This document shows, one piece after another, positions 4,933 through 7,223 of a stretch of 8,405 nucleotides of DNA. This stretch comes from a virus. Taxonomy: Duplodnaviria; Heunggongvirae; Uroviricota; Caudoviricetes. The notes below the pieces were generated by a model, which saw only the letters and a program-made list of their open reading frames with translations, had not been told where the DNA came from and did no database searches. Every line of letters starts with the position of its first letter. The first letter of the stretch is position 1. A program made the position numbers and the translations under genes. Where the stretch lies: IMG/VR virus record IMGVR_UViG_3300015179_000040, one strand, 5' to 3'.

Positions 4933-5097
4933 GATGGCAGCCTCCGCGATGAATTTGATTAACTCACCACCGAGGTTTTCCACGACCATAAGGGTGGTGA
5001 GACGTACAGGGGTGGAAATACCGGTCATCACGGAACCCGGCCAGCCTTGCGGCTGCCCTGCACGCCCCACCATAATGCGAATGTGGCTGTGCTTAAC

Positions 5098-5128
5098 GCA
5101 TAAAAAAACCGCCTGAGCGCGGTTATGC
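5098..5128 (-). terminator. Rho-independent terminator upstream of rha, within the operon
   Basis: On the minus strand: GCAUAACCGC-GCUCAG-GCGGUUUUUUUAUGC. A short GC stem with 6-nt loop followed directly by a 7-U tract. The plus strand has no U tract after the stem. Confidence 0.5.
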
Positions 5129-5410
5129 GCCGTGAATGATTTCGGGTTTCCACGCCCGGCACCCGTTTTATGAGGTGCAGGTGCACTATAATTCCACCCG
5201 TTCTGGTTTTCAATAGCTACATTCAACATTTTCTCTACCTTTCATCACCGAAGTGAACTTTGTTGATGCGGTGCCTGGTGCCTCCAGGTGACGTTAACCA
5301 GTTAACAATTAACGTCGGATACAGAGCATTCCCGTTACGCCCGTAAAAGACCGCTTGTTTTAACTGTTCCGCGTGCGCTGAGCCGCATTCACCGCATCAC
5401 AAAATTCACT

Positions 5411-5472
5411 TTAAAAGGGGCGGGTATCATGGGAAAAACAAAACGGATACCCGCCAAAAGGTAATCAACATG
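5411..5472 (-). ncRNA. dicF: DicF-like small RNA (divergent homolog) ending in an intrinsic terminator
   Basis: Minus-strand sequence UGUUGAUUACCUUUUGGCGGGUAUCCGUUUUGUUUUUCCCAUGAUACCCGCCCCUUUUAA has a 10-bp stem GGCGGGUAUC/GAUACCCGCC followed by CCUUUU. It resembles, from memory, E. coli DicF (…UUUGGCGGUAUCAGUUUUACUCC…GCCGCCCUUUUU). Synteny fits: downstream of ydfC-like, upstream of dicB. Ends are approximate; not confirmed by a covariance model. Confidence 0.45.
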
Positions 5473-5795
5473 GGTTGTTGCAGCGGGGTTGTCACTCAGG
5501 CGTATGGTCAACCTGACAACCCGGTGGACATTTGCGAGGAACGGAGAACCCCCGCCATACTTACCGCCGCGCCATTTCGCGGAGTGCCACAACCGGAAGC
5601 GCACGGTCGACGAAAATTTAACGACAGGCTATCTATGAACCAGCAACCTCGCCGTGCGCTTTCGCGTTATGCTCTGACTTTTCAGAGAAATATCCTTTCA
5701 GTAAACTGTCAGTGCCGGATGCTCACCCGTGTCCGGCGCACACACTCCACCTCACCCGTGGAGAACTCCTTAATTACCAACCCTCAGGAGGGTGA

Positions 5796-6029
5796 ATGTT
5801 AAAATCAACGCTTATTGCTAAATGCCTTTATCAAAATCGCATGGTAAGCAGCATTTCAATAGGCGAGTCTGCAGTTAAAAGTATTTTCGAAGAGTACTTT
5901 CCCGGGCATGATTTTAATAAATGGAATACCAAATTACCGCCAGCAGTTTCAACGCGTATTCTGAAAGCAACTGAAAGAGCAAGTACAATTCGCGTTAACT
6001 ATTTCATTAAAGATTTGTGGGATCTTTGA
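5796..6029 (+). CDS. Hypothetical 77-aa protein, opposite strand to the operon, convergent with and overlapping the 3' end of the 135-aa ORF
   Basis: ORF with AGGAGG-type SD 4-5 nt before the ATG at 5796. Protein-like composition (MLKSTLIAKCLYQNRMVSSISIGESAVKSIFEEYFPGHDFNKWNTKLPP...). No homolog recognised. Could be a chance ORF in an AT-rich stretch. Confidence 0.3.
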   Translation: MLKSTLIAKCLYQNRMVSSISIGESAVKSIFEEYFPGHDFNKWNTKLPPAVSTRILKATERASTIRVNYFIKDLWDL

Positions 6030-6414
6030 TATCCACAGAGCCTAAAGTATGTGCATATGGATGTGCTGTTGTGCGCCCTCGCAGATTTGCATCATTTTCT
6101 AAATTCACTGAACGAAACAGGGCATCAACAAGGCTCTGTACAATGCAAAGGCAATCGAAGACTGTCGCCGTTTCTGTTTTGATTGATGAAAGAACATGGC
6201 CATTCACGCAAACAGAAATTACCCGTTTATTAACATCGCTTTCCTGCTTTTGATTATCAGAACCATATAGCCCTGAAAAAGCATTGCGCACATTACGAAC
6301 CATATTATCGATGGTTTCTTTTTTGGTGTATGCCGGGTCAATTTTCACCAGACTATCACCGAGTGTCGTTGCAGCAATTATCTGGATTTCTTTTGGTAAA
6401 TCTTTAAATTCCAT
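6007..6414 (-). CDS. Hypothetical 135-aa protein of unknown function, in operon orientation between ydfC-like and the dicF-like RNA
   Basis: ORF with SD GAGG 6 nt upstream of the ATG at 6414, starting 22 nt after the ydfC-like stop. AT-rich codon usage distinct from the neighbouring GC-rich stretch. No family recognised from memory. Confidence 0.65.
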   Translation of the reverse strand: MEFKDLPKEIQIIAATTLGDSLVKIDPAYTKKETIDNMVRNVRNAFSGLYGSDNQKQESDVNKRVISVCVNGHVLSSIKTETATVFDCLCIVQSLVDALFRSVNLENDANLRGRTTAHPYAHTLGSVDIKDPTNL

Positions 6415-6436
6415 TATTAGCCTCGTTGGTTAACCA

Positions 6437-7075: not shown

Positions 7076-7167
7076 TGGCGTATGATATTTTTGATTTGGT
7101 AACTATGTAAATGTTTTTTCAAGGGAAAAATATTAGTTATACAGCTGATTTGCAGAAGTTATGGCAC

Positions 7168-7197
7168 AAAAAAACCGACTAAGACGTCGGTTTTTTT
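7168..7197. terminator. Bidirectional rho-independent terminator downstream of the repressor gene
   Basis: A7-CCGAC-UAAGAC-GUCGG-U7: GC stem flanked by complementary A and U tracts, so it can terminate on either strand. Lies 27 nt after the repressor stop. Confidence 0.6.
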
Positions 7198-7223
7198 GTT
7201 GTGGATGGGGTAGTGAGCGGTGG

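What the first reader, a model, noticed from the sequence alone, without database searches (positions are those of the whole stretch)
5523..5795. GC-rich, hairpin-dense stretch with no ORF on the operon strand, abutting the AT-rich insertion
This segment is visibly more GC-rich than the adjacent 5800-6420 region and contains several perfect short inverted repeats (e.g. GCCGGA...TCCGGC near 5713-5736; CTCCAC...GTGGAG near 5745-5765). The ORF-track frames here give arginine-rich, non-protein-like translations. It may be a structured RNA leader or processing platform for the sRNA, or a remnant of a different mobile segment.
Basis: seen in the sequence. Interest (0 to 1): 0.4.

Follow-up and report, generated by a model that had tools for sequence, protein, structure and literature searches.

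The report
Structured leader of DicF small RNA
This GC-rich stretch is the untranslated, heavily folded leader from which a prophage small RNA (a relative of the cell-division regulator DicF) is cut out; the arrangement is already known in E. coli K-12, but it contains a very common, conserved pseudoknotted RNA domain whose job I found described nowhere.

Summary
The region is 55% GC against 39% next door. The inverted repeats are exact, and no ORF is conserved on either strand.

On the operon (minus) strand the stretch is about 95% identical to the untranslated ydfC-dicF spacer of the K-12 Qin prophage dicBF operon. That spacer is the leader from which the sRNA DicF is processed.

It has three modules:
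- **A (5783-5665):** invariant hairpins, two of them carrying the same 10-nt loop sequence. Role unknown.
- **B (5664-5594):** a 13+3-bp stem. In K-12, the size of the 190-nt DicF precursor places its RNase III-made 5' end here.
- **C (5593-5477, running past the finding's edge):** six helices plus a pseudoknot, with strong covariation (98% paired, 13 of 34 pairs compensatory). It is absent from Rfam, present in 79% of complete E. coli genomes and in P1 downstream of Pban, and nearly always followed by a variable DicF-like sRNA with terminator (here about 5461-5413).

What domain C does is open. In N-encoding phages it is replaced by a loop-capped P0 hairpin, so cis-acting antitermination is a testable idea. 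It is not a put-RNA homologue.

The parts
5665..5783 (-). Module A of the leader. Contains an orphan SD-like UUAAGGAG (5773-5766), hairpin A1 (5763-5758 / 5750-5745), hairpin A2 (5737-5732 / 5719-5714), the same 10 nt CACGGGUGAG in both loops (5760-5751 and 5731-5722), and a small hairpin A3 (5687-5682 / 5677-5672). Function unknown.
   Evidence: Homologous to K-12 Qin from about 5783 downstream. Repeats. A1 and A2 are invariant in 23 distinct homologues, so covariation says nothing either way. The first 95 nt occur alone in other phages (H82; L273 and L013).
5594..5664 (-). Module B: a long stem (5' arm 5664-5652, 3' arm 5606-5594; 12 of 13 pairs, then a bulged A and 3 more pairs 5651-5649 / 5610-5608) with a 38-nt loop. 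It is the homologue of the K-12 stem where, by size, RNase III makes the 5' end of the 190-nt DicF species.
   Evidence: Inverted repeat I1 and fold. In K-12, 190 nt back from the DicF 3' end falls in the 3' arm (coordinates; experiment in PMC10448788). 92.7% of cells paired, one compensatory pair and four wobble-only changes.
5477..5593 (-). Module C: conserved multi-helix pseudoknotted domain. P0 5593-5588 / 5482-5477; P1 5582-5578 / 5571-5567; P2a 5566-5563 / 5525-5522; pseudoknot 5560-5555 (GUAUGG) with 5507-5502 (CCAUAC, in the P3 loop); P2b 5554-5550 / 5539-5535; P3 5520-5514 / 5494-5488; P3b 5513-5511 / 5501-5499. Only its 5' 60% lies inside the finding.
   Evidence: RNAalifold predicts it independently. 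Pair counts on 34 distinct sequences: 98.4% paired, 13 of 34 pairs with changes on both sides, 0 of 500 shuffles reach any measure, slid controls 32-56%. The single-sequence MFE gives the same helices. P2b: 25 distinct stems all fold. No Rfam family matches.
5413..5461 (-). DicF-like variant sRNA with intrinsic terminator (stem 5455-5446 / 5428-5419, then CCUUUU ending at 5413). The 5' end is inferred only by alignment with K-12 DicF.
   Evidence: Aligned with K-12 dicF (b1574) and the Tritos 'DicF' feature. Fold -17.2 kcal/mol, z = -3.3. The Rfam DicF model gave no match at E up to 10 in 5200-5900.
5259..5406 (-). Next structured module of the same untranslated region (STnc100-like; the homologue of the K-12 dicF-dicB spacer), with a long closing stem.
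   Evidence: Rfam RF02076, 35.6 bits, below the gathering score of 47, E = 5e-6. Conserved with K-12. A role as the 3' RNase III site is inferred from the published 72-nt DicF (PMC5069750).

Best explanation
On the minus (operon) strand, 5523-5795 is most of the long untranslated leader that precedes a DicF-type small RNA in a Qin/dicBF-like early-left prophage operon. The order here is cI/DicA-like repressor, YdfA-like and YdfC-like genes, an inserted gene pair, the leader, a DicF-like sRNA, then IsrK-C4-ant in place of dicB.

Proposed mechanism:
1. The operon transcript folds into three modules (A, B, C).
2. RNase III cuts the long stem of module B. This releases a pre-sRNA of about 190 nt, made of the pseudoknotted domain C plus the sRNA. 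Shown experimentally for the K-12 homologue; inferred here from about 95% identity.
3. RNase E then cuts in the single-stranded stretch just 3' of helix P0 and frees the mature sRNA, whose 3' end is its own terminator. Shown in K-12. A positioning role for P0 is my inference; P0 is the one helix kept in every variant.
4. The inner part of domain C is an optional, independently mobile RNA module under strong structural selection. I think it most likely acts in cis on the fate of the transcript at the sRNA's terminator, either promoting read-through or protecting the pre-sRNA. That last step is inference only.
For: Identity and context:
- Near-identity to the K-12 ydfC-dicF spacer and to phage Tritos, where the DicF feature is annotated.
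- Flanking YdfA (DUF1391) and YdfC-like genes on the same strand.
- Published processing scheme: 190-nt species by RNase III, 53-nt by RNase E, no internal promoter (PMC10448788). [quoted passage not shown]
- 190 nt measured back from the K-12 DicF 3' end lands in the 3' arm of stem B.

Structure and strand:
- Covariation supports domain C.
- About 85 of 1149 cells are G-U or U-G pairs, which would be A-C mismatches on the other strand. The RNA is therefore read on the operon strand.

Association with an sRNA:
- 61 of 63 distinct 3' flanks of domain C carry a hairpin plus U-tract 45-85 nt downstream. The sRNA body varies while the domain stays constant.
- The same unit lies about 30 nt downstream of the P1 Pban start and about 280 nt downstream of a near-consensus PL in phage cdtI. 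Promoter to terminator in P1 is again about 190-200 nt.
- A natural variant keeps P0 as a simple hairpin (GGUUGUG-AAUA-ACAAC) and still carries the sRNA.
Against: - No experiment exists for this window. The RNase III and RNase E sites are transferred from K-12.
- The exact cleaved nucleotide is not readable from the text of the paper's figure. I placed it by size only.
- Modules A and B hardly vary, so their folds have no comparative support. Their thermodynamic z-scores are unremarkable.
- The sRNA here is a variant that the Rfam DicF model did not match, and dicB is absent.
- Processing alone does not explain why a 117-nt pseudoknotted domain is so conserved, since the deletion variant shows the sRNA can exist without it.
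Confidence: 0.82

Rival explanations
1. Domain C (5593-5477) is a cis-acting antitermination or anti-polarity RNA. Once transcribed, it would let unmodified RNA polymerase pass the sRNA's intrinsic terminator, later terminators and Rho, so that downstream early genes are expressed in phages that lack an N protein. This would make it a functional analogue of HK022 put or Bacillus EAR. It is compatible with the processing role and would add to it.
For: - Position: always upstream of the first strong terminator of an early operon. In P1 it sits between Pban and the tRNAs and ban. In cdtI it sits between PL and the genes leading to xis, and no N is annotated in the whole phage. In Qin-type operons it sits before dicB.
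- In this window a second strong terminator (IsrK) follows, ahead of ant, exo, xis and int.
- The domain is constant while the terminators vary. This fits an action on polymerase rather than an antiterminator pairing.
- tblastn with three N proteins found N in 0 of 140 loci that carry domain C and have at least 2.5 kb upstream. It found N in 6 of 7 loci with the variant lacking the inner domain, and those N proteins are of three different types.
- In K-12 both terminated and read-through transcripts are seen (PMC10448788).
Against: - It is not a put homologue. A covariance model built from 7 put RNAs finds nothing at the element (filters off, E up to 10), and the domain model finds nothing in HK022.
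- cdtI has only one copy, and none downstream of PR.
- The N anticorrelation is confounded by descent. There are only about 5-8 distinct contexts.
- No functional data exist.
Confidence: 0.22
2. Domain C is a sensor, either a riboswitch-like aptamer or a binding site for a host or phage protein, that sets how much transcription stops at the sRNA terminator or how fast RNase E releases the sRNA.
For: - The architecture resembles an aptamer plus terminator: a multi-helix junction closed by P0, a loop-to-junction pseudoknot, and many invariant unpaired nucleotides (the P1 loop AAAUGG, junction AAG, P3 loop UGACCAUAC..CCUGAG). An intrinsic terminator follows.
- The P2b loop is always pyrimidine-rich while its stem covaries.
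- DicF accumulates in stationary phase (PMC10448788).
Against: - There is no conserved alternative pairing between the constant domain and the variable terminators.
- The distance to the terminator varies from 45 to 85 nt.
- No ligand or partner is suggested by gene context, which differs between P1, cdtI and Qin.
- No Rfam riboswitch matches.
Confidence: 0.08
3. The stretch encodes a protein on the plus strand (ORF 5470-5802, 110 aa), and its conservation reflects coding.
For: - The ORF spans the whole region.
- In 58 distinct homologues the plus-strand frame stays open for 88-108 codons in 54 of them, which is longer than I would expect by chance.
- Some phage records call 'hypothetical proteins' here.
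Against: - Minimal substitutions by codon position are 48, 50 and 56, so there is no third-position excess.
- Indels are 1, 2 and 4 nt, with only one run of 3.
- The window and K-12 are in different frames upstream of the P2b indel and use different start codons.
- The translation is Arg-rich and low in complexity.
- RefSeq/PGAP and the curated K-12 record annotate nothing here.
- The compensatory changes preserve RNA helices.
Confidence: 0.03
4. The plus strand is the functional one: the region is the promoter or 5' UTR of the inserted plus-strand gene 5796-6029.
For: - The plus strand folds with a better z-score (-3.9).
- In several prophages different plus-strand genes start at exactly this junction behind the same SD sequence.
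Against: - The leader is present unchanged in K-12, Tritos and most prophages that have no such gene.
- No sigma-70-like promoter was found on the plus strand in 5200-5800.
- The many G-U pairs in covarying helices exist only on the minus strand.
- In K-12 the minus-strand RNA is the detected species.
Confidence: 0.04
5. The stretch is a functionless relic conserved only because these prophages spread recently.
For: Modules A and B are nearly invariant, with no compensatory changes. That is what recent common descent would also give. Their folding energies are ordinary.
Against: - Domain C shows many independent compensatory changes and sits in at least five unrelated contexts.
- Stem B has a mapped nuclease site in K-12.
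- The adjacent sRNA body diverges strongly while the leader does not.
Confidence: 0.05

Closest known systems
ydfC-dicF untranslated region of the E. coli K-12 Qin prophage dicBF operon (190-nt and 53-nt DicF species; Faubladier 1990 as cited, Balasubramanian 2016, Ragunathan 2023)
   Same: About 95% identical over modules A-C. It sits in the same position after ydfA/ydfC homologues on the same strand and is followed by an sRNA hairpin with terminator and the STnc100-like spacer.
   Different: - The sRNA body is a variant: a 9-nt deletion, a different loop, and no match to the Rfam DicF model.
- An AT-rich two-gene insertion separates ydfC from the leader.
- dicB and ydfD are replaced by IsrK-C4-Rha/Ant.
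'dicF-like region' in the leader of the bacteriophage P1 ban operon (annotation in NC_005856)
   Same: P1 carries domain C with compensatory changes in P0, P2a, P2b, P3 and the pseudoknot. It is followed by a hairpin terminator, all just downstream of the C1-controlled Pban.
   Different: P1 has no modules A or B and no upstream genes. There the unit starts about 30 nt from the transcription start, so no RNase III step is needed to make a roughly 190-nt RNA.
HK022 put (polymerase-utilisation) antiterminator RNAs
   Same: A cis RNA downstream of early promoters and upstream of terminators in lambdoid phages without an N protein. A few short shared strings exist (ACCAUGCG, GCGCGGCGG), seen by eye.
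   Different: - There is no detectable homology. The put covariance model does not hit the element, nor does the domain model hit HK022.
- put is about 70 nt with two stems; domain C is 117 nt with six helices and a pseudoknot.
- The shared strings are in the opposite order.
- Only one copy per phage was found here.
Stem-loop-guided RNase E processing of 3'UTR-derived or intra-operonic sRNAs (e.g. MicL, CpxQ, SroC; review PMC9438474)
   Same: An sRNA that ends at an intrinsic terminator is released from a longer mRNA by RNase E, which cuts next to a stable helix.
   Different: Here an RNase III step comes first, and a large conserved pseudoknotted domain sits between the two cuts. No equivalent is described for the other sRNAs.

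Membership tests
dicBF-type DicF leader / pre-DicF | Sequence homology to the K-12 ydfC-dicF spacer | tested here: met
   Four-way alignment, almost every column of modules A-C identical. Model R1 scores 157 bits in the window and 160 in K-12.
dicBF-type DicF leader / pre-DicF | Lies in the early-left operon of a DicA/DicC-type immunity region, downstream of ydfA/ydfC homologues, on the same strand | tested here: met
   ORFs 6970-6815 (DUF1391/YdfA) and 6655-6437 (phrog_1744; named ydfC in the near-identical RefSeq locus), repressor-like 7685-7224, all on the minus strand.
dicBF-type DicF leader / pre-DicF | Followed by DicF sRNA ending in a Rho-independent terminator | tested here: inconclusive
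   A hairpin with U-tract is present and aligned with dicF. However, the Rfam DicF model gave no match and the body differs from DicF.
dicBF-type DicF leader / pre-DicF | RNase III cleavage upstream gives a species of about 190 nt; RNase E gives the mature 5' end | not testable with these tools
   Shown only for K-12 (PMC10448788). The stem and P0 are conserved here.
dicBF-type DicF leader / pre-DicF | dicB and ydfD downstream | tested here: not met
   IsrK, C4 and a Rha/Ant-like gene follow instead. The closest RefSeq relatives (H1) do have dicB.
HK022 put antiterminator RNA | Match to put sequence and structure (two stems, conserved GAACGGC...GGCGGG..CAGGAUGA..CGGCAAU) | tested here: not met
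   Covariance model R2, built from 7 put RNAs, scores 96-100 bits on HK639 and CobraSix. It finds nothing at the element in the window, K-12, P1 or cdtI (filters off, E up to 10).
HK022 put antiterminator RNA | Located downstream of an early promoter, upstream of terminators, in a phage without N | tested here: met
   P1 Pban. cdtI PL, with no N in the whole annotated phage. 0 of 140 loci had an N match (limited query set).
HK022 put antiterminator RNA | Suppresses termination by binding the beta' zinc-binding domain of the transcribing polymerase | not testable with these tools
   Needs transcription assays and rpoC mutants.
Any curated RNA family (Rfam 15) | Covariance-model match over 5477-5795 | tested here: not met
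   No match at E up to 10 apart from two chance-level hits, mascRNA (E = 5.2) and sn3071 (E = 6.6).
tRNA-like / tmRNA-like element | Recognised as a cloverleaf by ARAGORN or the Rfam tRNA/tmRNA models | tested here: not met
   ARAGORN finds 0 genes in the window. No Rfam tRNA-clan hit.
Protein-coding gene | Conserved frame, third-position bias, indels in multiples of three | tested here: not met
   Substitutions 48/50/56 by codon position. Indels of 1, 2 and 4 nt. The frame is not shared with K-12 upstream of P2b.

The most novel reading that the evidence does not exclude
The inner part of domain C (P1-P2-P3 plus pseudoknot, 5582-5488) would be a new class of cis-acting RNA. It would make ordinary E. 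coli RNA polymerase read through the DicF-type terminator and later terminators or Rho in N-less prophage and P1 early operons. In function it would be a third example beside put and EAR, unrelated to either in sequence and fold. It would sit in about four of five E. coli genomes and be physically fused to an Hfq-type sRNA, so that one RNA unit decides between 'make sRNA and stop' and 'go on to the lytic/early genes'.
Probability: 0.2. Interest if true: 0.8.

Novelty: new member of a known kind. Interest (0 to 1): 0.5.

Why it matters
DicF is one of the oldest known bacterial sRNAs. It affects cell division, metabolism and EHEC virulence, yet its leader has been treated as a plain 'long untranslated region'.

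This analysis shows that the 137 nt that make up the extra part of the 190-nt 'long DicF' are not a spacer. They consist mostly of a pseudoknotted domain under clear structural selection. The domain is shared by Qin-like prophages, cdtI/Stx2c-type phages and P1-type phage-plasmids. It occurs in 4268 of 5426 complete E. coli genomes, up to 8 copies each, and is unannotated.

That gives a concrete handle on two open points:
- What the 190-nt species is for.
- How early operons without an N protein get past the strong terminator that forms the sRNA.

For annotation, it also warns that the long open frame on the opposite strand, sometimes called as a hypothetical protein, is not a gene.

Tried and rejected
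- **Rfam on the window and on 5200-5900 at E up to 10.** Nothing covers 5477-5795, and the DicF model did not match the local sRNA.
- **put homology.** By eye I saw short shared strings (ACCAUGCG, GCGCGGCGG). A put covariance model and the reciprocal search were both negative, so I dropped membership.
- **tRNA-like idea.** It was prompted by the four-arm shape and a chance mascRNA hit. ARAGORN was negative.
- **Coding on either strand.** Rejected on substitution and indel pattern, despite a surprisingly long open frame on the plus strand.
- **Plus-strand promoter for the inserted gene.** None found.
- **Second copy near PR, as for putL/putR.** None in the window or in whole phage cdtI.
- **Complementary partner for the repeated loop sequence CACGGGUGAG.** None in the window.
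- **Covariation in modules A and B.** Uninformative, because they hardly vary.
- **The single genome-contig scan was wasted.** My GC-rich pattern hit random high-GC genomes, and only E. albertii was a true match. The taxonomic range therefore rests on the phage, plasmid and E. coli collections.
- **Older papers could not be read.** Faubladier 1990 and 1994, Lobocka 2004 and King 2011 are not held. An earlier drawing of this fold cannot be excluded.

Full report
**What is in the window.**
The window is the early region of a lambdoid prophage whose early-left operon runs on the minus strand.
- Minus-strand genes, in order: a repressor-like gene (7685-7224), YdfA-like (6970-6815, DUF1391), two more small ORFs including a YdfC-like one (6655-6437), then a long stretch without genes (about 5800-5230), a Rha/Ant-like gene (4932-4375), an 824-aa exonuclease, xis and int.
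- Rfam places IsrK at 5178-5102 and C4 antisense RNA at 5077-4990, both above their gathering scores. A sub-threshold STnc100 match lies at 5406-5259. All three are on the minus strand. Nothing matches 5477-5795.

**The observation.**
- 5523-5795 is 55.3% GC, against 38.8% for 5800-6420.
- There is also a 13-nt repeat (5594-5606 / 5652-5664).
- A perfect 10-nt direct repeat puts the same sequence, CACGGGUGAG on the minus strand, into both hairpin loops.
- No ORF of 40 aa or more lies on the operon strand within 5605-5795.
- Folding energy alone is only moderately unusual: z = -2.1 on the minus strand and -3.9 on the plus strand.
- The boundary at 5523 has no biological meaning.

**What it is.**
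- Megablast finds the block 5254-5783 in 4754 of 5426 complete E. coli genomes and in many phages. Phage Tritos annotates DicF inside it.
- I aligned the minus strand with the E. coli K-12 Qin prophage. Window 5783-5477 is almost identical to the spacer between ydfC and dicF, 5461-5413 aligns with dicF itself, and 5406-5259 aligns with the dicF-dicB spacer.
- The AT-rich 5796-6420 is an insertion relative to K-12 and Tritos.
- The finding is therefore the leader of a DicF-type sRNA in a dicBF-like operon.
- In K-12, RNase III makes the 5' end of a 190-nt DicF species and RNase E makes the 53-nt sRNA, with no internal promoter (PMC10448788).

**Anatomy: three modules that also travel separately.**
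A distant BLAST of the leader against phages shows three kinds of partial hit:
- only the first 95 or 208 nt;
- only the last 200 nt;
- only the last 100 nt or so. This group includes P1, P7, cdtI, Stx2c phages and a Salmonella phage.

*Module A (5783-5665).*
- It holds an orphan SD-like UUAAGGAG, the two hairpins with identical loop sequence, and a small third hairpin.
- In 23 distinct homologues the first two hairpins never vary, so covariation says nothing about them.
- I could not assign a role.

*Module B (5664-5594).*
- It is a stem of 13 pairs (one mismatch) plus a bulge and 3 more pairs.
- Counting 190 nt back from the annotated K-12 DicF 3' end lands in its 3' arm. This stem is therefore the RNase III site described in K-12. 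The exact nucleotide is not recoverable from the text of the figure.
- Variation is scarce but compatible: one compensatory pair and four U-G or G-U changes.

*Module C (5593-5477).* This is the interesting part.
- I collected instances from IMG/VR with a pattern in its most conserved loop and aligned 34 distinct sequences.
- RNAalifold on its own predicts P0, P1, P2a, P2b, P3 and P3b.
- I added a pseudoknot between GUAUGG in the P1/P2b junction and CCAUAC in the P3 loop.
- On this structure 98.4% of 1149 cells are standard pairs and 13 of 34 pairs show changes on both sides. None of 500 shuffles reaches the observed value on any of the five measures. Sliding the partners by 1-3 columns drops pairing to 32-56% (first version).
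- P2b aligns poorly because its sequence is so variable. Even so, all 25 distinct versions fold into a hairpin of at least 4 bp at the same place, always with a pyrimidine-rich loop.
- About 7% of cells are G-U pairs, including an invariant U-G. The structure therefore exists only on the operon strand.
- The window's own sequence folds into the same helices, although the energy is not exceptional (z = -0.9).
- Caveats:
  - The collection pattern fixed the 3' arm of the pseudoknot except for one position. That position does covary with its partner (U-A 28, C-G 3, U-G 3).
  - The sequences are related, so shuffle counts are not probabilities.

**Context of module C.**
- In 61 of 63 distinct 3' flanks, a hairpin followed by a U-tract lies 45-85 nt downstream. 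These sRNA-like hairpins differ widely while the domain stays the same.
- In P1 the domain starts about 30 nt after the start of the C1-controlled Pban promoter, next to the feature annotated 'dicF-like region', and precedes tRNA genes and ban.
- In phage cdtI and its many relatives it lies about 280 nt downstream of a near-consensus PL and precedes the genes leading to xis.
- In Qin-type prophages it follows ydfABC and modules A and B.
- I count at least five to eight distinct contexts.
- The domain alone is found in 4268 of 5426 complete E. coli genomes (8593 places, up to 8 per genome). Among the records listed for that search, no feature is annotated under the match. It is also on 510 plasmids, mostly P1-like, of Escherichia, Salmonella, Klebsiella and Shigella.
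- In all cases the unit 'domain C plus sRNA' is about 190 nt. It is made either directly from a promoter (P1) or by the RNase III cut (Qin type).

**A natural deletion variant.**
- Some prophages keep modules A and B and the sRNA but replace everything inside P0 by a short loop (GGUUGUG-AAUA-ACAAC).
- This confirms P0 as a helix. It also shows that the inner domain is dispensable for having the sRNA.
- These prophages encode N antiterminators. tblastn with three N proteins hits 6 of 7 such loci (933W-type, lambda-like and a 36%-identical one). It hits none of 140 domain-C loci that have at least 2.5 kb of upstream sequence.
- No N is annotated in the whole cdtI genome or near the element in the window.
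- The pattern is suggestive of a role that N makes unnecessary, namely read-through of terminators.

**Comparison with put.**
- HK022 put RNAs are the known RNA-only antiterminators of N-less lambdoid phages (PMC9378689).
- I extracted putL and putR and five relatives. I aligned and folded them and built a covariance model.
- That model recovers HK639 and CobraSix at 96-100 bits. It finds nothing at the element in the window, K-12, P1 or cdtI, even with filters off.
- The domain-C model finds nothing in HK022.
- cdtI has a single copy.
- So it is not a member of the put family. Whether it works like put is untested.

**Coding.**
- The plus-strand ORF 5470-5802 (110 aa) spans the region, and the frame stays open for 88-108 codons in most homologues.
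- Several observations argue against coding:
  - Substitutions are spread 48/50/56 over the three codon positions, and indels are 1, 2 and 4 nt.
  - K-12 and the window are in different frames upstream of P2b.
  - Curated annotations have no gene here.
- I regard it as non-coding on both strands.

**Verdict.**
- As a locus it is another member of a known kind, in a new mosaic: a DicF variant, an inserted gene pair upstream, and IsrK-C4-ant downstream.
- What I did not find described in the papers I could read, or in Rfam, is that most of the '190-nt DicF' extension is a covariation-supported pseudoknotted domain. It is shared with P1 and many other phages.
- Its function is unknown. I rank the possibilities as follows:
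  - a cis role in terminator read-through: about 0.2;
  - a sensor or protein-binding role: below 0.1;
  - the remainder: a structural role in processing or stability of the pre-sRNA.

Noticed in passing
window 5178-4990 (-), with 4932-4375 (-): IsrK (67.7 bits) and C4 antisense RNA (81.9 bits), plus a sub-threshold c4-a1b1 target-like match at 5191-5139, sit directly upstream of a Rha/Ant-like gene. A P1 immI-type antirepressor control module thus takes the place that dicB has in K-12 Qin. Phage cdtI has the same IsrK-C4 pair elsewhere (L007 40-228).
   Followed up: partly
window 5461-5413 (-): The sRNA after the leader is a DicF variant. It has a 9-nt deletion relative to K-12 DicF, a different loop and only four U's after the stem, and the Rfam DicF model gave no match to it. 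Its targets may differ from those of DicF. At least a dozen different sRNA bodies follow the same domain in other phages.
   Followed up: partly
window 5796-6029 (+) and 6414-6007 (-): An AT-rich inserted pair of convergent genes overlaps by 23 nt (77 aa phrog_10348; 135 aa phrog_1363). Neither has a Pfam match or a known function, and both are absent from K-12 Qin and Tritos. In other prophages, different plus-strand genes begin at exactly the same junction behind the same SD (CCCTCAGGAGGGTGAAATG), as if this were a preferred slot for cargo genes antisense to the operon. No plus-strand promoter was found.
   Followed up: partly
L085 4750-5560 and L063 about 5000-5300 (IMG/VR contigs): In two contigs, domain C is not followed by a terminator. 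It is embedded in an ORF-poor, GC-rich, apparently structured region of 800 nt or more, with a longer closing helix around P0. This may be a larger non-coding RNA that contains the domain.
   Followed up: no
window 5549-5540 (P2b loop) and 5773-5766: The P2b loop is pyrimidine-rich in all 25 variants (CUCC/UCCU/CUCUU, resembling the anti-SD). It is complementary to the invariant, ORF-less SD-like UUAAGGAG at the start of module A. P1 and cdtI have the loop but not module A, so the partner, if there is one, may be something else.
   Followed up: no
window 5470-5802 (+) and homologues: The opposite-strand reading frame stays open for 88-108 codons in 54 of 58 distinct homologues, although substitution and indel patterns are non-coding. 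Gene callers in several phage records annotate hypothetical proteins here. The reason for the stop-codon avoidance is unexplained.
   Followed up: partly
window 5406-5259 (-): This STnc100-like module scores 35.6 bits, below the gathering score of 47. It has a closing stem of about 20 bp (5411-5392 with 5280-5262). It is the homologue of the K-12 dicF-dicB spacer and is probably the RNase III site that gives the 72-nt DicF. cdtI-type phages have a different 17-bp stem at the same place (L007 2677-2775).
   Followed up: no
window 7126-7202: A hairpin flanked by an A-run and a T-run (AAAAAAACCGAC...GTCGGTTTTTTT) lies just downstream of the repressor-like gene. It looks like a bidirectional terminator. 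It gives only weak Rfam matches (STnc370, IS128).
   Followed up: no
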